Positions 3,752-63,627 of a DNA stretch of 64,000 nt are shown in pieces (position 1 is the stretch's first letter; each line of letters starts with the position of its first letter). The DNA comes from Patescibacteria group bacterium (GTDB lineage Bacteria; Patescibacteriota; Minisyncoccia; UBA6257; UBA9933). The position numbers and the translations under genes are program-made. Where the stretch lies: positions 11,980-75,979 of the forward strand of contig JASEIG010000002.1 in assembly GCA_030017615.1 (NCBI GenBank), written 5' to 3'. The notes below the pieces were generated by a model. It saw only the letters and a program-made list of their open reading frames with translations, ran no database searches and was not told the DNA's origin.

Positions 3752-3801
3752 TTTAACTAATTAGCGAATTAGTAAATCAGAAAGAAAAGCAATTAATTAA
3801 A

Positions 3802-5421: not shown

Positions 5422-6186
5422 TTGCAAAAATCAATGAAAAATTCCGTATATTTGTCGGTTATAATACCGGCTTACAACGAAGCAAAAAGAATATCTCTCA
5501 CATTAATTGATGTTAATAAGCACTTGTCAAAGGCAAATTTCACGTACGAAATTATTGTTGTTGATAATAATTCAAAAGACGCTACTAAGGAAATTGCTGA
5601 AAGATTTTCGCATATTATAAAAAATCTGCGGGTTATAGAATGTCCTATACAAGGAAAAGCGAATGCCGTAAAAATGGGAATGTTAAGCGCGAAAGGCGAT
5701 ATTCGCTTATTTACGGACGCCGATAATTCAACCTCAATAGACCAGGTTTACAAAATGTTTCCTTATTTTGAAAAAGGGTATAATATAGTGATTGGTTCGC
5801 GTGATGTTGAGGAAGCAAAACTTATTCCTTCGCAACCGTGGTATCGTCGCTTAGGAGGAAATATCGGAAATTTGGTTATCCAAGCTTTGCTCTTGCCGGG
5901 AATCTGGGATACGCAATGCGGATTTAAAGCTTTAACTGCGGAAGTTGCGGAAAAAATATTTTCTATGGCCAAAATAAGAGGTTGGGGTTTTGACGCGGAA
6001 ATTTTAGCTTTAGCCAAAACACTCGGCTATAAAATAAAAGAAATTCCGGTTGTTTGGGTAAACAGCCCATTTTCACACGTCAAAGCTTCGGCATACCTTG
6101 AAGTTTTGTGGGAAGTCTTTAAAATTAGGTGGTGGCTGACAACTAATCGTTATAAAATTAGAAAAGCGCGCGAAACCGTAAAATAA
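5422..6186 (+). CDS. family-2 glycosyltransferase (polyprenol-phosphate sugar transferase / DPM1-GtrB-like)
   Basis: N-terminal VIIPAYNE ... VVDNNSKD ... DAD motifs of GT-A fold GT2 enzymes. Confidence 0.75.
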   Translation: MQKSMKNSVYLSVIIPAYNEAKRISLTLIDVNKHLSKANFTYEIIVVDNNSKDATKEIAERFSHIIKNLRVIECPIQGKANAVKMGMLSAKGDIRLFTDADNSTSIDQVYKMFPYFEKGYNIVIGSRDVEEAKLIPSQPWYRRLGGNIGNLVIQALLLPGIWDTQCGFKALTAEVAEKIFSMAKIRGWGFDAEILALAKTLGYKIKEIPVVWVNSPFSHVKASAYLEVLWEVFKIRWWLTTNRYKIRKARETVK

Positions 6187-11626: not shown

Positions 11627-13453
11627 ATGAATTCGCGAGAATTAAGAGAAAAATTTTTTGATTTTTTTAAAAAACGTGGGCATACGATTGTAAAATCTTC
11701 TTCTTTAATCCCTGACGATCCGTCGGTTCTTTTAACGACCGCAGGGATGCAGCAATTTAAAAAATATTACACCGGTGAACTTGACGCTATGGACAGTTTC
11801 GGTTCGCAAAGAACCGTTTCAATACAAAAAAGTTTTCGGACAAGCGATATTGAAGAAGTGGGCGACGAAACTCACCTCACTTTTTTTGAAATGTTTGGTA
11901 ATTTTTCATTTGGACCAGTCGGAACGGACAACCCGGAAGACACCGGAAAAATCGGGTATTTTAAAAGAGCGTCAATTTATTGGGCGTATGAATTTATTAC
12001 CAATATTTTAGAAATTTCCGAAAATAGAATTTACGTGTCTGTTTTTGCCGGAGATAAAGAAATTTCTTTTGACCAAGAATCTTATGATATTTGGAAAAAC
12101 GAAATAAAAATTCCTGAAAACAGAATTTTTAAAGGGTCTCGGCAGGATAATTTTTGGGGACCCACCGGAGAAGAAGGGCCATGCGGGCCGTCAACGGAAA
12201 TTTATATCACGCCTTCCGCCGCCGAAGCTGAAGCGGGCAAGGGAGTGGAAATCTGGAATATCGTTTTTAACGAATTTTACAAAAATAAAATCGGAATTTA
12301 TCAAAAAACCGAAAATCTGGGAGTGGATACGGGGATGGGTATGGAAAGACTAGCTGTAATATTACAAGGAGTTAATAATGTTTTTGAAACCGATTTATTC
12401 GTTTCTATTATGGCTAAAATCAATGAATTAACTCCGTCTGCGGACAATAGAATTAAAAGAATCTTGGCGGACCATTTAAGAGGCGCTATATTTTTAGTTG
12501 CTGACGGAGTTTTGCCTTCCAATAAAGAAGCTGGATATGTATTAAGAAGACTACTGAGAAGAATTTTAGCTTATCAGATTGTAAACGACATACATGCCGA
12601 TTTATTTGCCGAAAGCGTGGAAATAATAAAAAATAATTTCGGAGAATTTTATCCCGAATTAAATAAAACAAAAGAAATTCTGAACGTTTTAGAAGAGGAA
12701 AAAGTAAAATTTGAAGAAACAATCGGCAGGGGAATACGTGAAATTGAGAAATACAAAGAGAGCGGAAAAGAAATCAGCGGAAGCGAAGCGTTTTATTTAT
12801 ATGAAACTTTCGGACTGCCGTTTGAATTAATTAAAGAATTGGCGCCGTCCAAATTAACCGCAAATTTAAACAAAGCGGATTTTGACAGGGAATTTGAAAA
12901 ACATCAGGAAATTTCACGAGCGGGAGCCGAAAAAAAATTCGGCGGACACGGATTGATTTTTGACACCGGAGAATTAAAAGCGGCAACCGAAGAAGAAATG
13001 AAAAAAGTTATACGCCTGCATACCGCCACTCATTTATTACAATGGGCATTGCGGCAAGTTTTAGGAAACGAAGTAAAACAAATGGGTTCAGATATTACTT
13101 CTGAAAGATTGCGTTTTGATTTTTCTTTCGGAAGAAAAATAACTCCGGAAGAAATTAAACAGGTTGAAAATTTAGTAAATGAAAAAATTAATCTAAATCT
13201 TCCCGTTTACTTTGAAGAAATGAGTAAGGAAGAAGCGGAAAAATCGGGCGCGCTGGCGTTTTTCAGGCAAAAATATCCGTCTGTGGTTAAAGTTTATTTT
13301 ATCGGTTTCAAAGCGAGCGGAGAAATAATCAGCAAAGAACTTTGCGGAGGTCCGCACGTGGAATATACATCCGAGATTGGAAAGTTTAAAATAATTAAAG
13401 AAGAATCGGTGGGAATGGGTATCAGAAGAATTAAAACGATACTCAGCAATTAA
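11627..13453 (+). CDS. alaS: alanyl-tRNA synthetase, short form (catalytic, tRNA-recognition and editing domains; no C-Ala domain)
   Basis: N-terminal motif FFKKRGHTIVKSSSLIPDDPSVLLTTAGMQQFK; editing HxxxH (HTATHLL) and CGGPHV; 608 aa against about 870 typical. Confidence 0.85.
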   Translation: MNSRELREKFFDFFKKRGHTIVKSSSLIPDDPSVLLTTAGMQQFKKYYTGELDAMDSFGSQRTVSIQKSFRTSDIEEVGDETHLTFFEMFGNFSFGPVGTDNPEDTGKIGYFKRASIYWAYEFITNILEISENRIYVSVFAGDKEISFDQESYDIWKNEIKIPENRIFKGSRQDNFWGPTGEEGPCGPSTEIYITPSAAEAEAGKGVEIWNIVFNEFYKNKIGIYQKTENLGVDTGMGMERLAVILQGVNNVFETDLFVSIMAKINELTPSADNRIKRILADHLRGAIFLVADGVLPSNKEAGYVLRRLLRRILAYQIVNDIHADLFAESVEIIKNNFGEFYPELNKTKEILNVLEEEKVKFEETIGRGIREIEKYKESGKEISGSEAFYLYETFGLPFELIKELAPSKLTANLNKADFDREFEKHQEISRAGAEKKFGGHGLIFDTGELKAATEEEMKKVIRLHTATHLLQWALRQVLGNEVKQMGSDITSERLRFDFSFGRKITPEEIKQVENLVNEKINLNLPVYFEEMSKEEAEKSGALAFFRQKYPSVVKVYFIGFKASGEIISKELCGGPHVEYTSEIGKFKIIKEESVGMGIRRIKTILSN

Positions 13454-59406: not shown

Positions 59407-59607
59407 TTTAAAATATACCCGCTCGCGTCCGCTTATTTTAAAAACTCGCTGGATACGCGAGAAAAGTAAACAAACGCAAAGTGAAAATTAAATTAAGTGT
59501 TGTTTTATTCATTCTTATTATAAAAAATAGCTTGTTTATGTCAAGCGCGGTTTCCATGTATTACTATCGCGCTAAATATTATAACGCTTTATTGTTATAA
59601 TTAGAAT

Positions 59608-61005
59608 ATGAAATTAGCGATTATTTCAGGCATTTTGGGAATTTTAGCTTTCTTGCCTTTTCAATATCTGTTTATATTCGGATTTTTTTATTTGGTTCCC
59701 TTTTTTGTTTTTCTCGTTAAAGAAGAAAAATTACGGCGGCTTATCGCTGGTTCTTTAATTTTTAAAATAATATTTTGTCTCGGCGCGGTATATTATACGC
59801 TTGAGCCGATTACATGGGTTTGTTCTGTAATTATTTTTTTAGGGTTACCGCTGTCTGTTTTCGCGCTCAAAAAAGTAAGGTTTTTTCGCGAAAATTATAT
59901 TGCTGTTCTCGCGTTCATTCCCGTCTTATGGACATTTTGGGATTTAACGGAAGCGAGTTTTTCTCCGATGCCCGCTTACATAATCACATTGGGAAACGTT
60001 TTCGGACACTCCCCTTTTCTCGGACTTGCGGGATTTCACGGATTTGTCGGATTAACTTTTTTTGGAGCGGCGGTTAATACCCTGTTCGCGCTTTACTTTT
60101 TTATACCCCGCAAAAAATATCTTCAAAATTCCGCTATTATTATAATAATTATTATTTTTGCGCTGGCGTTTTCGCAATGGCGCCTCCATAAAAACCGTTT
60201 AGATTACAATAGTGGGAAAAACACTTTAAACATCGCTTCAATTTCAGTAAATGAAAAATTCAGTCCGCCTGATTTTGAAAAATTAAGAAAAGAACTGCAA
60301 TCAAACAACGCGGATTTAATAATTCTCCCCGAGGACATTTTAAACGCCGCCGGAACCGATTATACAAATAAAAATTTTTTCGTTATGCGCGATTTGGCTA
60401 AAAACACCCGAATCAATTTGCTTGCTAATTTTGATATTTTTGAAAATCCCGATTTAGAAAACCGAAAAATATTTAACTCAACTTTTTTATTTGACAAAGA
60501 CGGAACGGTTTCCGATATGCGAAATAAAAAGCGGCTGACTTTCATCGGAGAATATTGGCCTTTCGGAAACTGGCGCCCCTTTTTCTTTGACTGGACGCTG
60601 ACAACCAATCCTGAATATAAAAATTACGCCGTTTTCAGCCATATAAATTATTCACAGGGAAAAGAAAAAAATCTGACCTTAAAAACAAACGATAAAACAA
60701 TTAATTTCTCATCTTTAATATGTTTGGAAATACATTATCCGCAAGACGTGAAAAAACGAAAAAAAGACGGCGCGTCTTTTATCGTCAATTCATCCAGTAA
60801 TAGGTGGATTGATATCGGAACAAAACATTTCCTTTATCTATCCGAGGGATTGAAAAAAATAGAATCCGTGTGGCTTAATATCCCCGTCATATCAAGCGGA
60901 GTGAATGATTACGCCGGAATAATAACCCCCGACGGGGAAAATTATTCTTATGATTTTAATTCTGAAAATAATTTTACAATTTTTTATGGAAAAATTAATT
61001 ACTGA
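59608..61005 (+). CDS. lnt: apolipoprotein N-acyltransferase-like protein (membrane domain plus CN-hydrolase domain)
   Basis: N-terminal TM helices; nitrilase-fold triad candidates E (LIILPED), K (NKKRLTFIGEYWPF), C (SLICLEIHYP). Confidence 0.6.
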   Translation: MKLAIISGILGILAFLPFQYLFIFGFFYLVPFFVFLVKEEKLRRLIAGSLIFKIIFCLGAVYYTLEPITWVCSVIIFLGLPLSVFALKKVRFFRENYIAVLAFIPVLWTFWDLTEASFSPMPAYIITLGNVFGHSPFLGLAGFHGFVGLTFFGAAVNTLFALYFFIPRKKYLQNSAIIIIIIIFALAFSQWRLHKNRLDYNSGKNTLNIASISVNEKFSPPDFEKLRKELQSNNADLIILPEDILNAAGTDYTNKNFFVMRDLAKNTRINLLANFDIFENPDLENRKIFNSTFLFDKDGTVSDMRNKKRLTFIGEYWPFGNWRPFFFDWTLTTNPEYKNYAVFSHINYSQGKEKNLTLKTNDKTINFSSLICLEIHYPQDVKKRKKDGASFIVNSSSNRWIDIGTKHFLYLSEGLKKIESVWLNIPVISSGVNDYAGIITPDGENYSYDFNSENNFTIFYGKINY

Positions 61006-61069
61006 TAACTGATAAAATGTTGCAAAAACTGTCTTTGACGTGTTATTTTTATGAAAGGAAAATTTTAAA

Positions 61070-61140
61070 GGGCCTGTAGTATAACGGTAACACGTATCCA
61101 TGGCATGGATAAGTTAGGGGTTCGATTCCCCTCAGGTCCA
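61070..61140 (+). tRNA. tRNA-Ala (anticodon GGC), G3:U70 present, discriminator A73, CCA not encoded
   Basis: Hand-folded cloverleaf: acceptor GGGCCTG/CAGGTCC, anticodon stem TATCC/GGATA, loop ATGGCAT, T-arm AGGGG-TTCGATT-CCCCT. Confidence 0.8.
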
Positions 61141-61154
61141 CTAACTAATTTTAG

Positions 61155-61228
61155 GGGCCTATAGTTAAGTGGTATAACACCTCATTTGCAATGAGGAGGC
61201 GGCAGTCCGATTCTGCCTAGGTCCACCA
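61155..61228 (+). tRNA. tRNA-Ala (anticodon TGC), G3:U70, CCA encoded
   Basis: Acceptor GGGCCTA/TAGGTCC, D GTTA/TAAC, anticodon stem CCTCA/TGAGG, loop TTTGCAA, T-arm GGCAG-TCCGATT-CTGCC. Confidence 0.85.
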
Positions 61229-61297
61229 AAAAAATTTAGTTATTGTTATAATTATAATTACTTTATAGTTAATGATCAGTTATAAGTTAGTTTTATT

Positions 61298-61324
61298 GGA
61301 GGAGTGCCTGAGTGGTTATGGAAT
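61298..61324 (+). other. truncated 5' fragment of a class-II (Ser/Leu-like) tRNA: GGAGGAG-TG-CCT-GAGTGGTTAT-GGAAT
   Basis: Resembles acceptor 5' strand plus D-arm of tRNA-Ser; no 3' half follows. Confidence 0.4.
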
Positions 61325-61364
61325 TATAATAGAGATGTTTTTAAATGTATTTTCCCGAAATTTT

Positions 61365-61373
61365 ATGGTATAC
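61365..61373 (+). promoter_or_regulatory. extended -10 TGGTATACT immediately upstream of the second tRNA-Ser-like fragment and the HNH GTG start
   Basis: Motif read directly; one nucleotide separates it from the tRNA-like +1. Confidence 0.45.
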
Positions 61374-61374
61374 T

Positions 61375-61391
61375 GGATGAGTGGCCGAGAG
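61375..61391 (+). other. second truncated tRNA-Ser-like 5' fragment GGATGAG-TG-GCC-GAGAG (matches the 5' end of a bacterial tRNA-Ser as recalled from memory); the HNH GTG start codon lies inside it
   Basis: Strong match to the acceptor 5' strand + U8 G9 + D-stem GCC + GAGAG D-loop start; diverges after about position 17. Confidence 0.45.
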
Positions 61392-61857
61392 ATATAAAAG
61401 AAATCCAAATACTAAATGTGTAGTTTGTAATAATCCTATATATAGAAGACCTTATGAAATAAAAAGGAACAACGGGCGAGTTTTTTGCGGTATGACTTGC
61501 TATGGAGTTGCTTGCAGAAAAGAAATTTCTTGTGTTGTTTGTTCCACACCAATTTTATCTAGATTAAATAAAAAAACTTGCAGTAAAAGTTGCGCAAATA
61601 AATTTAGGGATGGTATCCGATATAAAATTAATAGCCCGCGAGATAAAGTTAAAAGCCAGAGAAGTTTGAAAATAAGGTTGTTAAATCAACGAGGTAAAAA
61701 CTGCGAAAGATGCGGATATGGTAAATTTGAAATTCTACAAGTGCATCACAAAAATAGAAACAGAGAAAATAATAAACTAGACAATTTAGAATTAATCTGC
61801 CCGAATTGTCATGCGGAAAAGCACTATCTAGAAAATAGTTGGCTCAATAACAAATAA
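61381..61857 (+). CDS. HNH endonuclease with N-terminal CxxC zinc-finger repeats
   Basis: Four CxxC pairs, then an HNH core containing the His pair HH and the C-terminal motif CPNCHAEKH. Confidence 0.8.
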   Translation: MAERYKRNPNTKCVVCNNPIYRRPYEIKRNNGRVFCGMTCYGVACRKEISCVVCSTPILSRLNKKTCSKSCANKFRDGIRYKINSPRDKVKSQRSLKIRLLNQRGKNCERCGYGKFEILQVHHKNRNRENNKLDNLELICPNCHAEKHYLENSWLNNK

Positions 61858-61885
61858 CAAATAAATTAACTATTTGTGGAGTTAT

Positions 61886-61973
61886 GGAGGGTTGCGCCGA
61901 ATGGTAAGGCACCAGTCTTGAAAACTGGGGCTCCGAAAGGGGCTTAGAGGTTCGAGTCCTCTACCCTCCGCCA
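61886..61973 (+). tRNA. tRNA-Ser (anticodon TGA), long variable arm, CCA encoded
   Basis: Acceptor GGAGGGT/ACCCTCC, anticodon stem CCAGT/ACTGG, loop CTTGAAA, T-arm AGAGG-TTCGAGT-CCTCT, discriminator G. Confidence 0.85.
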
Positions 61974-62006
61974 GTCAGGAAATGAAATTATTAACAATAA
62001 TAGTTG

Positions 62007-62079
62007 CGGCCCCAAGGGGAATTGAACCCCTGTTTTCAGGATGAGAACCTGATGTCCTGGTCCACTAGACGATAGGGCC
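62007..62079 (-). tRNA. tRNA-Glu (anticodon CTC), no encoded CCA
   Basis: Reverse complement GGCCCTATCGTCTAGTGGACCAGGACATCAGGTTCTCATCCTGAAAACAGGGGTTCAATTCCCCTTGGGGCCG closely parallels the tRNA-Glu architecture (TCGTCTAG...AGGAC D-arm); anticodon loop TTCTCAT. Confidence 0.8.
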
Positions 62080-62235
62080 ATTCCTCACCTTAGGTGGCAT
62101 TTTAACGCCTGCCTCAGGTGCGGAACTTAGCCACTCTGGTCGGAGTAATGGCTAATTCCTGTTATTTATCATATTTTACTTTCTCAATCAATTCTTCTGT
62201 TGTAAGCCGTTAGTTATTGGTTGTAGGTTTATTAA

Positions 62236-63627
62236 TCACATCTTCCGTATCTCCTCAACAACCTTATCCAATCCAATCGCGCGCGAAGCTTTAACCAAAA
62301 TCAAATCTCCCGGCCTTGATAAATCTTGTATTGTTTTTAATGATTCATTTACGGTATCAAAAGAAAACACGCTACTGTATGACATTCCGTTCAATTTTGC
62401 TTTTTCAGCGATAAATTTTCCTCTCGGTCCGACAGTTATCAAAATATCGGCAACTTCGCGAACCATTTTCCCCGCATCTTCGTGCGCTTCAATTGAATAT
62501 TTCCCAAGTTCAAGCATATCGCCCAGAACCGCAATTTTCCTTTCCGATTCTAAATCGCCTAAAGTCATCAACGCTTCTTTTATTGAAAGCGGCGACGCGT
62601 TATAACTGTCGTCTATTATCCAAGTTTCTTTTATCCCTTCAATCAAATTCATTCGTTGTTTCGCGGGAATATAATGCCTTTCAATAAGTTCCGCAATTTC
62701 CACTAAATTCAGTCCATAAATCGTCCCTATGGCAAAAGCCGAGGCAACACTGTACGCCTGCGCCTTCCCAAAAACATTTTTCAAATTCACCGGCACAAAA
62801 CTTCCTTTATATTCTATTTTAAAAGAAATCCCTCCCGGCCTGACCTGCCTTGAGCTTGCTCGCCCCGCCATGGCGATGACCGAAGAGACTTGTTCTGAAT
62901 TTACCGAAGGAGCTTGTCCTAAGCTTGTTAAAGGAACGGAATAATTTTCAAAATTGGAAATTTTCATATCAGCCTCTTCGTTAAATCCGAAAGTTATCGC
63001 TTGCGCTCCGGTTTTATCTTTCATTTTCATAACCATTTCATCGTCGCAATTCAAAACCGCAAAACCGCTTGACGGCAAAGCTTCCACTATTTTTAACTTT
63101 TCCTTAACCACATCTTCCACATCGTCATAAAATTCCACATGGACTGGAATGTCCCCGATTGCGGTAATTATACCCAATTTCGGTTTCGCTATTTTAAGCA
63201 GATATTTTATATCGCCGGGCCTGTCGGCTCCGAATTCCAAAATTATAATTCGCGGGTATTTTCTATTTCTGAAAATAATTTCAAAAATTCCGGTTAAAAT
63301 AACTTTCAGCCAAAAAAATGTTTTTTGGATTTTTTTTGTGTTTTTCGGCTGTCCACGGCTTACTAATTTTAAATCGCTTTCCGCCCAATCTCCGATTATC
63401 GTCAAAGGTACTCCTAATTCATTGTTAAAATTCCCTTCTGAACTTCTCACGCACAACTCCATTTTATCAATCAGGGTCAAATGATTCATATTGGACAAAA
63501 CTGAAAAAATAGTTCTTTTAGCCGAAGTTTTTCCCACACTTCCCGTAACAGCAATAATTTCCGGCCGATATTTTCGTATAATTGCTTTTGATAATACTTT
63601 TAAAATTTTCTGTAAAATAATAATCAT
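62236..63627 (-). CDS. murF: UDP-N-acetylmuramoyl-tripeptide--D-alanyl-D-alanine ligase
   Basis: Mur-ligase P-loop TGSVGKTS, central and C-terminal Mur ligase domains; directly downstream of ftsI. Confidence 0.85.
   Translation of the reverse strand: MIIILQKILKVLSKAIIRKYRPEIIAVTGSVGKTSAKRTIFSVLSNMNHLTLIDKMELCVRSSEGNFNNELGVPLTIIGDWAESDLKLVSRGQPKNTKKIQKTFFWLKVILTGIFEIIFRNRKYPRIIILEFGADRPGDIKYLLKIAKPKLGIITAIGDIPVHVEFYDDVEDVVKEKLKIVEALPSSGFAVLNCDDEMVMKMKDKTGAQAITFGFNEEADMKISNFENYSVPLTSLGQAPSVNSEQVSSVIAMAGRASSRQVRPGGISFKIEYKGSFVPVNLKNVFGKAQAYSVASAFAIGTIYGLNLVEIAELIERHYIPAKQRMNLIEGIKETWIIDDSYNASPLSIKEALMTLGDLESERKIAVLGDMLELGKYSIEAHEDAGKMVREVADILITVGPRGKFIAEKAKLNGMSYSSVFSFDTVNESLKTIQDLSRPGDLILVKASRAIGLDKVVEEIRKM

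What the first reader, a model, noticed from the sequence alone, without database searches (positions are those of the whole stretch)
61229..61975. HNH endonuclease gene starting inside a truncated tRNA-Ser-like fragment and sitting behind the tRNA's promoter, within a tRNA cluster
The region runs: tRNA-Ala(GGC), tRNA-Ala(UGC), then two 5' fragments that look like the acceptor 5' strand plus D-arm of class-II (Ser-like) tRNAs (61298..61324 and 61375..61391), an HNH endonuclease ORF, an intact tRNA-Ser(UGA), and tRNA-Glu on the opposite strand.

The second fragment, GGATGAG-TG-GCC-GAGAG, is a near-perfect match to the first about 17 nt of a bacterial tRNA-Ser. It is preceded at the correct spacing by an extended -10 (TGGTATACT). 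The GTG start codon of the HNH ORF is formed by the last acceptor-stem G plus U8-G9 of that fragment.

The arrangement suggests an HNH-containing element inserted, twice or with partial duplication, into the D-loop region of tRNA-Ser genes. The endonuclease is now expressed as a leaderless mRNA from a captured tRNA promoter, and the downstream tRNA-Ser(UGA) stays intact. This would be an unusual mode of homing-endonuclease persistence.
Basis: partly seen in the sequence, partly recalled or inferred. Interest (0 to 1): 0.7.

Follow-up and report, generated by a model that had tools for sequence, protein, structure and literature searches.

The report
Mobile HNH cassette beside tRNA-Ser gene
A small nuclease gene that looks like a selfish "homing" element sits directly in front of one serine-tRNA gene here and in hundreds of other Patescibacteria, and it brings its own promoter and a start region that copies the first bases of a serine tRNA.

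Summary
The tRNAs, the HNH ORF (61381-61857), the TGGTATACT element and both tRNA-Ser-like 5' pieces are where stated, and both pieces score far above background.

This is not a local double insertion. It is one copy of a ~0.5-kb cassette found in at least 423 species-level genomes, nearly all labelled Patescibacteria. In 83 of 84 fetched loci, and in the window, it lies just upstream of tRNA-Ser(UGA) on the same strand.

The cassette carries its own extended -10 promoter. The start codon (GTG/ATG) lies 6 nt after the -10 in about 76 of 77 loci, which fits leaderless expression. Fragment 2 belongs to the cassette and is conserved even at synonymous sites. It is not a scar of a local gene, and the -10 abuts it, which is the wrong spacing for a tRNA promoter.

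Fragment 1 is a local remnant of another tRNA-Ser gene; only 6 of 78 HNH+ loci have such a piece.

Evidence for a free-standing homing endonuclease:
- The gene is present or absent beside identical tRNAs.
- Two filled/empty site pairs were found.
- Decayed copies exist.
- dN/dS is 0.05-0.13.
- Relatives sit in phage tRNA arrays, including T5/BF23 F-TflIV.

Cleavage, homing and the transcription start site were not tested.

The parts
61070..61141 (+). tRNA-Ala(GGC). Upstream neighbour, not part of the cassette.
   Evidence: ARAGORN; Rfam tRNA 58.4 bits.
61155..61228 (+). tRNA-Ala(UGC). Upstream neighbour.
   Evidence: ARAGORN; Rfam tRNA 68.4 bits. The syntenic relative L001 has the same Ala-Ala-fragment-HNH-Ser(UGA) order.
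61298..61324 (+). Fragment 1: the 5' remnant (acceptor 5' strand plus D-arm, about 27 nt) of a class-II tRNA-Ser gene. It is not a functional tRNA and its isoacceptor cannot be resolved.
   Evidence: PWM score 20.3 bits; 1 of 712,106 background positions reaches 20 bits. Not called by ARAGORN or Rfam. Comparable pieces occur in L001, L006, L019, L040 and L058. Best matches are spread over several Ser isoacceptors.
61366..61376 (+). Cassette promoter: extended -10 TGG-TATACT (61366-61374) followed by GG (61375-61376). No conserved -35.
   Evidence: The column profile over 81 loci shows T-15 in 75, G-13 in 74, T-12 in 78, T-7 in 77 and G-6/G-5 in 65/63 of 81, with nothing conserved upstream of -17. 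The distance from the -10 end to the start codon is 6 nt in 71 loci as scored, and in about 76 of 77 after inspection. Reading GG as a discriminator-type element rests on my own knowledge of E. coli promoters, not on a test.
61375..61391 (+). Fragment 2: the tRNA-Ser-like 5' end of the cassette (GGATGAG-TG-GCC-GAGAG). It overlaps the promoter's GG, the GTG start codon and codons 2-4.
   Evidence: The family consensus GGATGAGTGGCTGAGC scores 16.8 bits on the tRNA-Ser PWM. On other PWMs it scores -13.4 (Arg), -2.8 (Ala), 4.9 (Thr), 3.2 (Val) and 4.4 (Leu). Codon 3 is GAG 65 times and GAA once, while elsewhere in the ORFs the ratio is GAA 482: GAG 258. The third base of codon 2 is T in 52 of 77 loci against 34% elsewhere. 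The piece is carried by the cassette in the L037/L093 pair.
61381..61857 (+). HNH endonuclease ORF, 158 aa, GTG start. Two N-terminal Cys4 modules lie at aa 13-40 (61417-61500) and aa 51-71 (61531-61593). The HNH nuclease domain spans aa 108-148 (61702-61824).
   Evidence: Pfam HNH and HNH_3 above their cutoffs. 594 homologues, the top 120 at 65-80% identity. Invariant residues include C13, C16, C36, C40, C51, C54, C67, C71, C108, C111, H122, H123, N135, C140, C143, H144 and H148. AlphaFold2 mean pLDDT 82.7. Best Foldseek matches are McrA, Cap5 and the Gme HNH nickase, at weak E-values (1.4e-2 to 9.5e-2). dN/dS is 0.05-0.13.
61858..61885 (+). 28-nt spacer between the HNH stop codon and the tRNA. 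It has no terminator and no convincing promoter.
   Evidence: The promoter/terminator scan finds nothing here. In the family the stop codon lies 0-50 nt before, or inside, the tRNA.
61886..61973 (+). Intact tRNA-Ser(UGA), the invariant downstream partner of the cassette.
   Evidence: ARAGORN; Rfam tRNA 54.3 bits. Present on the same strand directly after the HNH gene in the window and in 83 of 84 fetched loci.
62006..62079 (-). tRNA-Glu(CUC), a convergent neighbour. Not part of the cassette.
   Evidence: ARAGORN; Rfam tRNA 61.3 bits.

Best explanation
The window holds one copy of a widespread mobile cassette of about 0.5 kb, found almost entirely in genomes labelled Patescibacteria. The cassette is a free-standing HNH homing-endonuclease gene that always lies immediately 5' of the tRNA-Ser(UGA) gene.

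Shown:
- The cassette runs from about 17 nt upstream of an extended -10 promoter (TGTGG-TATACT-GG) to just after the conserved C-terminal '...SWL' residues.
- Its start codon (mostly GTG) lies 6 nt after the -10, and there is no Shine-Dalgarno sequence.
- Its first 15-18 bases copy the 5' end of a tRNA-Ser and are conserved at the nucleotide level.
- The gene is present or absent beside identical tRNA genes.
- Filled and empty sites exist in related genomes.
- Decayed copies exist.
- The protein is under strong purifying selection.

Inferred:
- The mRNA is leaderless.
- Transcription from the cassette promoter runs on into tRNA-Ser(UGA). This is required at least where the cassette has replaced the tRNA's own promoter.
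- The enzyme binds DNA at or near the 5' part of tRNA-Ser genes through its two Cys4 modules. It cuts HNH-less alleles, and recombinational repair copies the cassette in (homing). Sometimes a neighbouring, redundant tRNA-Ser gene is truncated in the process, which would account for fragment 1.
- The tRNA-like 5' end is either a frozen piece of the tRNA-Ser gene into which the ancestral ORF inserted, or a retained copy of the recognition site. It could, for example, be an autoregulatory operator like that of I-TevI.
For: Linkage: at least 423 species-level genomes encode a relative. tRNA-Ser(UGA) follows on the same strand, 0-108 nt after or overlapping the stop codon, in the window and in 83 of 84 fetched loci, while upstream neighbours vary.

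Promoter and leaderless geometry. No conserved RNA structure occurs in the first 80 nt of the mRNA. Another gene in the window (lnt) has the same geometry, and Shine-Dalgarno-like motifs occur in only 24 of 55 long ORFs.

tRNA-like 5' end: the PWM statistics and specificity for Ser are, and the synonymous-site bias is. A phage relative at 47% identity (L208) also begins ATG CGT GAG TGG TTG A, which is tRNA-Ser D-arm-like.

Mobility:
- Among metagenome loci with the same tRNA 5' 27-mer, 72 lack the HNH gene and 25-28 have it.
- Seven full-length tRNA sequences occur in both states.
- In L037 versus L093 (flanks 79% and 83% identical), the cassette sits between the upstream terminator and the tRNA's native promoter. 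In L041 versus L120 (flank 87% identical over 1970 nt), it replaces the 77-nt intergenic region and the promoter.
- L127 has lost the nuclease core, and L194 keeps only promoter-like and 'YLEKSWL' remnants.
- dN/dS is 0.05-0.13.

Relatives: 22 loci in viral contigs, many inside phage tRNA arrays and next to tRNA-Ser genes. The closest characterised protein is F-TflIV of T5/BF23, which lies in the tRNA gene region.

Precedents from papers: T4 SegB is a free-standing HEG in a tRNA cluster that recognises a tRNA-gene motif and spreads itself together with neighbouring tRNA genes (PMC2330249). The I-TevI operator resembles its homing site and overlaps its own promoter (PMC2988022).
Against: - No cleavage, homing or transcript data exist.
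- Identical tRNA-Ser(UGA) genes occur with and without the cassette. The tRNA sequence alone therefore cannot explain why HNH+ alleles escape cutting, and the target is unknown.
- The cassette's tRNA-like 5' end does not co-vary with the resident tRNA (own 7.62 versus permuted 7.67 identities out of 16). This gives no support to an operator or target-mimic role matched to the host tRNA.
- Left junctions show no shared homology, so spread between distant lineages needs illegitimate recombination or another vector.
- In some loci (L037 type) the tRNA keeps its own promoter inside the HNH 3' tail, so co-transcription is not general.
- Patchiness could partly reflect repeated loss from an ancient vertical element.
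- Fragment-1-type remnants are not significantly more frequent in HNH+ than in HNH-less loci (6/78 versus 1-2/71).
Confidence: 0.65

Rival explanations
1. In this genome an HNH element inserted twice, or with partial duplication, into the D-loops of resident tRNA-Ser genes. It left two scars and captured the resident tRNA promoter.
For: Both fragments are truly tRNA-Ser-like. In L019 and L040 a tRNA-Ser 5' fragment is fused directly to the cassette's left end, so insertion into a tRNA-Ser gene does happen.
Against: Fragment 2 and the promoter are conserved in about 76 of 81 loci from very different hosts. They arrive with the cassette in L037/L093. The -10 abuts the fragment, whereas native tRNA promoters lie 6-14 nt from G1. 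The window holds only one HNH copy.
Confidence: 0.07
2. A domesticated or host-beneficial HNH protein that is functionally tied to tRNA-Ser(UGA), inherited vertically and lost repeatedly. Its role could be in expression, repair or protection of that locus, or in defence.
For: Strict linkage to one tRNA gene. Strong purifying selection. 65-80% identity across lineages that carry many different candidate-phylum labels. No intron or intein context.
Against: The gene is absent from about three quarters of sampled loci with the same tRNA 5' sequence. It is present or absent beside identical tRNAs. Decayed copies exist. Its relatives sit in phage tRNA arrays and include the homing-like endonuclease F-TflIV.
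Confidence: 0.15
3. The tRNA resemblance of the cassette's 5' end is coincidental. GG would be a promoter discriminator, RTG the start codon and NCT-GAG ordinary codons. The HNH gene would simply be a small orphan nuclease gene that happens to lie in tRNA-rich intergenic DNA.
For: The median PWM score over individual loci is only 8.2 bits. There is no co-variation with the resident tRNA. A GG after the -10 has a plausible promoter role (my own knowledge of E. coli promoters). Rfam and ARAGORN see nothing.
Against: The consensus scores 16.8 bits, is specific to tRNA-Ser, and only 9 of 712,106 background positions reach 16 bits. The GAG:GAA ratio of 65:1 at codon 3, against 258:482 elsewhere, shows a nucleotide-level constraint that coding alone does not explain. 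The same motif occurs in the distant phage relative L208. Linkage to tRNA-Ser(UGA) in 83 of 84 loci is not chance.
Confidence: 0.1
4. The fragments are scars of an integrase-type genomic island or prophage that used the tRNA-Ser gene as its attachment site.
For: tRNA genes are common integration sites, and integration does create partial tRNA duplications (general knowledge).
Against: The flanking genes are lnt, a Mur ligase and a penicillin-binding protein, with no integrase. The inserted unit is only about 0.5 kb. The duplicated pieces are 5' ends, not the 3' ends that integrases usually duplicate.
Confidence: 0.02

Closest known systems
F-TflIV (hegA) and the other HNH endonucleases in the tRNA gene region of phages T5/BF23
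   Same: It is the closest characterised sequence relative found: 40% identity over aa 73-145, E = 4e-5. It is a free-standing HNH gene inside a tRNA gene cluster, just after tRNA-Ser(AGC)-tRNA-Ile in BF23, and is annotated as a homing-like endonuclease. PMC2330249 lists these T5 enzymes as HEGs located in the tRNA cluster.
   Different: The phage protein is larger (684-nt CDS) and has an annotated ribosome-binding site. It is phage-borne, not chromosomal. I did not examine it for a tRNA-like 5' end. Only the nuclease half aligns.
T4 SegB, a free-standing GIY-YIG homing endonuclease in the T4 tRNA cluster
   Same: It is a free-standing HEG between tRNA genes. It recognises a conserved tRNA-gene motif. 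It is inherited together with neighbouring tRNA genes and replaces the recipient's tRNA region (PMC2330249, PMC2988022). This is the best functional analogy for the proposed behaviour, including replacement or truncation of neighbouring tRNA genes.
   Different: It belongs to a different nuclease family (GIY-YIG versus HNH). It acts in phage co-infection rather than between bacterial chromosomes. It targets the T-psi-C motif of many tRNAs rather than being tied to a single tRNA gene. Its activity has been shown experimentally, which is not the case here.
I-TevI autorepression through an operator that resembles the homing site and overlaps the endonuclease's own promoter
   Same: Here too, a sequence resembling the presumed target class (the tRNA-Ser 5' region) overlaps the endonuclease's own promoter and transcription start, and it is conserved beyond coding needs (PMC2988022).
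   Different: This is purely an analogy. No binding was tested, there is no co-variation with the resident tRNA, and I-TevI is an intron-encoded GIY-YIG enzyme.
HNH genes inside group I introns of Patescibacteria tRNA-Asn genes (PMC13011429)
   Same: The same phylum, the same nuclease superfamily and a tRNA gene as the site.
   Different: Those HNH genes lie within self-splicing introns at anticodon-loop position 35/36. Here Rfam finds no group I intron, the tRNA-Ser(UGA) is uninterrupted, and the ORF is free-standing upstream of it.

Membership tests
HNH (His-Me finger) endonuclease | HNH sequence motif recognised by curated profiles | tested here: met
   PF01844 scores 28.7 bits (cutoff 21.4) and PF13392 scores 26.6 bits (cutoff 24.8). 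PHROG 1271 'HNH endonuclease' gives 3e-16.
HNH (His-Me finger) endonuclease | Conserved catalytic His/Asn/His residues and flanking CxxC zinc ligands | tested here: met
   C108, C111, H122, H123, N135, C140, C143, H144 and H148 are invariant in 25 sequences.
HNH (His-Me finger) endonuclease | Beta-beta-alpha-metal fold | tested here: inconclusive
   The AlphaFold2 model has pLDDT 82.7 with strand-strand-helix at aa 120-151. The best Foldseek PDB matches are HNH proteins (McrA 6ghc, Cap5, Gme HNH), but no E-value is below 1e-2.
HNH (His-Me finger) endonuclease | Metal-dependent nuclease activity | not testable with these tools
   Needs purified protein.
Free-standing homing endonuclease gene | Not embedded in an intron or intein; has its own expression signals | tested here: met
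   No group I or group II intron hit in 60900-62300. The conserved promoter lies directly before the ORF.
Free-standing homing endonuclease gene | Presence/absence polymorphism at the same site in related genomes | tested here: met
   L037/L093 and L041/L120 are filled/empty pairs. Seven identical tRNA sequences occur in both states. In the metagenome sample, 72 loci lack the gene and 25-28 have it.
Free-standing homing endonuclease gene | Degenerate copies, as expected from the invasion-decay-loss cycle | tested here: met
   L127 has an internal deletion of the nuclease core. L194 is a footprint with a 'YLEKSWLHGK' remnant (E = 0.03).
Free-standing homing endonuclease gene | The enzyme cleaves the HEG-less allele near the insertion site, and repair copies the gene in | not testable with these tools
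   Requires cleavage and genetic assays. The target is unknown.
Leaderless mRNA | Start codon at the position expected for the transcription start (about 7 nt after the -10) and no Shine-Dalgarno sequence | tested here: met
   The -10 end to RTG distance is 6 nt in 71 of 77 loci as scored (about 76 on inspection). Start codons are GTG 58 and ATG 15. The six bases between are GGATGA-like, too close to serve as a Shine-Dalgarno sequence.
Leaderless mRNA | Mapped 5' end at the start codon | not testable with these tools
   Needs 5'-RACE, dRNA-seq or metatranscriptome reads.
tRNA gene or pseudogene (fragments 1 and 2) | Cloverleaf recognised by tRNA detectors | tested here: not met
   ARAGORN and an Rfam scan with E-values up to 10 give nothing at 61298-61391.
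tRNA gene or pseudogene (fragments 1 and 2) | Sequence similarity to the tRNA-Ser acceptor 5' strand plus D-arm beyond chance | tested here: met
   The fragments score 20.3 and 17.0 bits. The background rates are 1 and 9 per 712,106 positions at 20 and 16 bits. The cassette consensus (fragment 2's family form) scores high only on the Ser matrix.
Intron-encoded tRNA homing endonuclease (group I intron) | ORF inside a self-splicing intron that interrupts the tRNA | tested here: not met
   No intron model hit. The tRNA-Ser(UGA) is continuous.

The most novel reading that the evidence does not exclude
The tRNA-Ser-like 5' end of the cassette would be functional rather than a fossil. It would be a built-in copy of the endonuclease's recognition site. 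It would either let the protein repress its own leaderless promoter, and with it read-through into tRNA-Ser(UGA), or serve as a recombination arm. On this reading the cassette would move between Patescibacteria lineages together with, or into, tRNA-Ser genes, and would truncate redundant tRNA-Ser isoacceptor genes as it goes. A selfish nuclease would then be shaping the serine-tRNA gene set of a whole bacterial superphylum.
Probability: 0.3. Interest if true: 0.75.

Novelty: new variant of a known kind. Interest (0 to 1): 0.6.

Why it matters
Free-standing homing endonucleases are well studied in phages. Well-defined chromosomal examples in bacteria, with a single fixed genomic address, are rare as far as I know. 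I did not find this family described in five full-text searches.

This family offers several things to test:
- It gives hundreds of natural filled, empty and decayed alleles of one site in Patescibacteria.
- It has a compact 158-aa enzyme whose target can be tested directly.
- It has a conserved, minimal, -35-independent promoter that predicts leaderless GUG-initiated translation in these little-studied bacteria.
- It shows a case where an ORF's start region copies a tRNA and is held constant at synonymous sites.
- It links chromosomal elements to the HNH genes of phage tRNA arrays.

On the practical side, the cassette explains spurious N- and C-terminal extensions of annotated proteins that translate tRNA genes. 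It also explains tRNA-Ser fragments seen in metagenome-assembled genomes.

Tried and rejected
- Rfam E-value scan and ARAGORN for partial or pseudo tRNAs at 61298-61391: no hits, so I used a dedicated PWM instead.
- Local alignment of each locus's upstream region to its own tRNA-Ser(UGA): mostly uninformative, and dominated by intact neighbouring tRNAs.
- Co-variation between the cassette's 5' 16-mer and the resident tRNA: none. This rejects ongoing gene conversion or host-matched mimicry.
- Conserved mRNA structure as the reason for the synonymous-site constraint: RNAalifold finds no pairs in the first 80 nt.
- Group I intron context: rejected.
- Integrase island: rejected from the neighbouring genes.
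- Assigning fragment 1 to an isoacceptor: ambiguous, with best scores of 14-16 for all five anticodon classes.
- An internal promoter for tRNA-Ser(UGA) in the window's 28-nt spacer or in the HNH 3' end: only weak candidates (for example TTGGCT-17-TAAATT, 8 of 12 matches, below the scan threshold). This stays unresolved.
- Exact-sequence look-up of the window's HNH protein: not on record.
- Enrichment of fragment-1-type remnants in HNH+ versus HNH-less loci: 6/78 versus 1-2/71, too few to be significant.
- Sequence search of solved structures: only a weak McrA hit.
Full report
**What is in the window**

ARAGORN and Rfam agree on four tRNA genes: tRNA-Ala(GGC) at 61070-61141, tRNA-Ala(UGC) at 61155-61228, tRNA-Ser(UGA) at 61886-61973, and tRNA-Glu(CUC) at 62006-62079 on the opposite strand. 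Between them lies a 158-aa ORF at 61381-61857. Its GTG start is the first codon after an in-frame TGA, and no other start precedes the conserved CxxC at residues 13-16. The protein matches Pfam HNH and HNH_3 above their curated cutoffs. TGGTATACT lies at 61366-61374, ending 6 nt before the GTG. The flanking genes are ordinary housekeeping genes: an lnt-like gene, a Mur ligase and a penicillin-binding protein. The window holds only one HNH copy.

**Are the two tRNA-like fragments real?**

tRNA detectors do not call them, even with permissive thresholds. I therefore built a weight matrix from positions 1-16 of 90 distinct tRNA-Ser genes taken from related loci.
- Fragment 1 (61298...) scores 20.3 bits and fragment 2 (61375...) scores 17.0 bits.
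- In 712,106 background positions from the same kind of DNA, 1 position reaches 20 bits and 9 reach 16 bits.
- Fragment 1 continues into a D-loop sequence typical of tRNA-Ser.

One detail fails. The -10 hexamer touches fragment 2, whereas the promoters of real tRNA-Ser genes in related HNH-less loci (TGGTATAAT-like) lie 6-14 nt before tRNA position 1.

**The gene belongs to a large family with a fixed address**

A protein search gave 594 homologues. The top 120 are about 160 aa long and 65-80% identical, and nearly all the source names that exist point to Patescibacteria. Some of them had been called with N- or C-terminal extensions that are translations of tRNA genes or of the motif TGGTATACTGG.

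A scan of one genome per species found at least 423 genomes with a relative, and 80 loci were kept. I ran ARAGORN on the 84 loci fetched up to that point and on the window. tRNA-Ser(UGA) follows on the same strand in the window and in 83 of the 84 loci, either 0-108 nt after the stop codon or overlapping it. The one exception ends at the ORF. Upstream neighbours differ widely. A few records carry non-Patescibacteria labels; I did not check whether these are binning errors.

**Promoter and leaderless geometry**

I aligned the loci at the start codon. The DNA is conserved from about -17: tGTGG-TATACT-GG, then 4 variable bases, then the start codon. Nothing is conserved further upstream, so there is no -35 element.
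- The -10 ends 6 nt before the start codon in 71 loci as scored, and in about 76 of 77 after inspecting the others.
- Start codons are GTG in 58 loci and ATG in 15.
- There is no room for a Shine-Dalgarno sequence.
- The first 80 nt of the mRNA show no conserved structure.

It is still an inference without transcript data. It is not unique to this gene either. The neighbouring lnt gene has TGTTATAAT, 6 nt, then ATG, and only 24 of 55 long ORFs in the window have a Shine-Dalgarno-like motif.

**Fragment 2 is part of the cassette**

- The family consensus from the base after the -10, GGATGAGTGGCTGAGC, scores 16.8 bits on the tRNA-Ser matrix. On the matrices for tRNA-Arg, Ala, Thr, Val and Leu it scores between -13.4 and 4.9.
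- The region is held constant beyond coding needs. Codon 3 is GAG 65 times and GAA once, although Glu codons elsewhere in these AT-rich ORFs are GAA 482: GAG 258. The third base of codon 2 is T in 52 of 77 loci even though the amino acid varies.
- A phage-contig relative at 47% identity (L208) also starts ATG CGT GAG TGG TTG A, which reads like a tRNA-Ser D-arm.
- In the pair L037 (with HNH) and L093 (without), the flanks are 79% and 83% identical. The whole unit, including this tRNA-like start, lies between the upstream gene's terminator and the tRNA's own promoter (TTGAAA-16-TATACT). That promoter survives inside the 3' tail of the HNH ORF.

Fragment 2 therefore travels with the cassette and is not a scar of a local tRNA gene. 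It does not co-vary with the resident tRNA. Its origin is most simply an ancestral insertion of the ORF into the D-loop of a tRNA-Ser gene. Why it remains under nucleotide-level selection is unexplained.

**Fragment 1 is local and uncommon**

Comparable second fragments, scoring 16-23 bits and lying 42-83 nt before the start codon, occur in 6 of 78 HNH+ genome loci: the window, L001, L006, L019, L040 and L058. In L019 and L040 the fragment is fused directly to the left end of the cassette. However, 1-2 of 71 HNH-less loci also have such a piece. The fragments match different tRNA-Ser isoacceptors best. For example, L006 matches Ser(CGA) with an alignment score of 21 (length 25), and L040 matches Ser(GGA) with a score of 24 (length 28). 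The window's fragment is ambiguous.

In HNH-less relatives, another tRNA-Ser gene (GCU or CGA) often lies directly upstream of tRNA-Ser(UGA). The likeliest reading is that fragment 1 is the remnant of such a neighbour, truncated near position 25. The cassette's arrival may have caused the truncation, but this is an inference. The closest syntenic relative, L001 (HNH 75% and Mur ligase 65% identical), has the same order: Ala, Ala, fragment, HNH, Ser(UGA).

**Evidence that the cassette is a mobile, selfish element**

- I scanned metagenomes for the tRNA's 5' 27-mer. Of the loci found, 72 have no HNH gene, 25-28 have one and 20 are too short to judge.
- Seven full-length tRNA-Ser(UGA) sequences occur both with and without the cassette.
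- A second filled/empty pair is L041 versus L120, with 87% identity over 1970 nt of flank. Here the cassette replaces the 77-nt intergenic region and the tRNA's native promoter, and the ORF runs into the tRNA. The tRNA must then depend on transcription coming from within the cassette.
- Decayed copies exist. L127 has lost the nuclease core. L194 keeps only promoter-like repeats and a 'YLEKSWL' remnant.
- Intact copies are under strong purifying selection: dN/dS is 0.05-0.13 where dS could be computed, and synonymous sites are otherwise saturated.
- Twenty-two relatives occur in viral contigs. Many lie inside phage tRNA arrays next to tRNA-Ser genes, and some have tRNA 3' fragments right after the stop codon.
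- The closest characterised protein is F-TflIV of T5/BF23, which is encoded in the tRNA gene region.

**Protein**

Sixteen Cys, five His and N135 are invariant. They define two N-terminal Cys4 modules and a C-terminal CxxC...HH...N...CxxCH...H nuclease domain. The AlphaFold2 model has pLDDT 82.7. Its best PDB matches are HNH proteins, at weak significance.

**How it most likely works**

Shown: the anatomy, the strict linkage, the polymorphism, the decay and the selection.

Inferred:
- The mRNA is leaderless and driven by the cassette's own -35-independent promoter.
- Transcription reads through into tRNA-Ser(UGA). This is required where the native promoter has been replaced and is optional elsewhere.
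- The Cys4 modules bind DNA at or near the 5' part of tRNA-Ser genes.
- The enzyme cuts HNH-less alleles, and recombinational repair copies the cassette in.

The best analogies are T4 SegB, which recognises a tRNA-gene motif and spreads itself with neighbouring tRNA genes (PMC2330249), and, for the tRNA-like promoter region, the I-TevI operator that mimics its homing site (PMC2988022).

Weak points:
- The target is unknown.
- The tRNA sequence alone cannot give immunity, because it is identical in both states.
- Left junctions share no homology.

**Novelty**

Five full-text searches found nothing on this family. The recent survey of tRNA introns in Patescibacteria reports HNH genes only inside tRNA-Asn introns (PMC13011429). 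The kind of element is known (a free-standing homing endonuclease at tRNA genes). The variant is new in four respects: it is chromosomal, it is tied to one tRNA gene across genomes labelled as many different Patescibacteria lineages, its geometry is leaderless, and its tRNA-copying start region is conserved at synonymous sites.

Noticed in passing
window 59590-59610 (+): The lnt-like gene (59608-61005) is preceded by TTGTTATAAT, then 6 nt, then ATG. This is the same extended -10 and leaderless geometry as the HNH gene. Only 24 of 55 long ORFs in the window have a Shine-Dalgarno-like motif. Leaderless expression may be common in this organism.
   Followed up: partly
window 62080-62160 (-): About 80 nt between the Mur ligase stop codon and tRNA-Glu(CUC) fold into two stable hairpins (MFE -35.2 kcal/mol, z = -3.65 for the 156-nt stretch). 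Rfam gives only a sub-threshold mir-27 match, which is surely spurious as a family assignment. This could be a terminator pair or an undescribed small RNA or leader.
   Followed up: partly
L127, about 700 nt upstream of tRNA-Ser(UGA) at locus position 6108: The cassette has an intact promoter and N-terminal half, but the HNH nuclease core is deleted. The sequence jumps from '...RPRDKA' to '...HYEEHYLEKSWL'.
   Followed up: partly
L194, 100 nt upstream of tRNA-Ser(UGA) at locus position 12948: This locus has no HNH gene but carries TATGGTATATATGGTATAC followed by a 'YLEKSWLHGK' remnant (tblastn E = 0.03). It looks like the footprint of a nearly complete deletion of the cassette.
   Followed up: partly
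L200, 91 nt upstream of tRNA-Ser(UGA) at locus position 3776: An HNH-less locus carries a tRNA-Ser-like 5' piece, GGAGGCGTGTCTGAGTGGTTTATGGAG (17.2 bits), which resembles the window's fragment 1. It has no T-arm and ARAGORN does not call it. Such remnants are therefore not exclusive to HNH-bearing loci.
   Followed up: partly
L210-L213 (viral contigs), directly after the HNH stop codons: Distant HNH relatives in phage tRNA arrays are followed at once by tRNA 3' fragments (T-arm plus acceptor 3' strand, for example GGTTCGAGTCCATCCTCCGCCACCA in L210). This suggests insertion into tRNA genes, or split or unusual tRNA genes, in those phages.
   Followed up: no
L113 and L158, about 125 nt upstream of the cassette, minus strand: tRNA-Ser-like 5' pieces (GGAGAGGTGGCTGAGCGGGC..., 21.1 bits) lie on the opposite strand and are not called as tRNAs.
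   Followed up: no
L015, L056, L071, L080: Four family members lack the TGGTATACT-GG motif and the tRNA-like start. L056 and L080 have an intact tRNA-Ser(GCU) just upstream and a different upstream region with an ATG start further from any -10. They may form a leadered sub-lineage.
   Followed up: no
P0028, P0066, P0085, P0059, P0115 (database proteins): The public gene calls for several family members carry N- or C-terminal extensions that are translations of adjacent tRNA genes (for example 'GSNP', 'WVRIP', 'RRVGRTAMRES') or of the promoter ('WYTGL'). These are annotation artefacts.
   Followed up: yes
L009, L017, L056, L058 (record titles) and P0112: A few carriers are labelled Ignavibacteriaceae, Gammaproteobacteria or Burkholderiales rather than Patescibacteria. 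This could be mis-binning or real spread outside the phylum.
   Followed up: no
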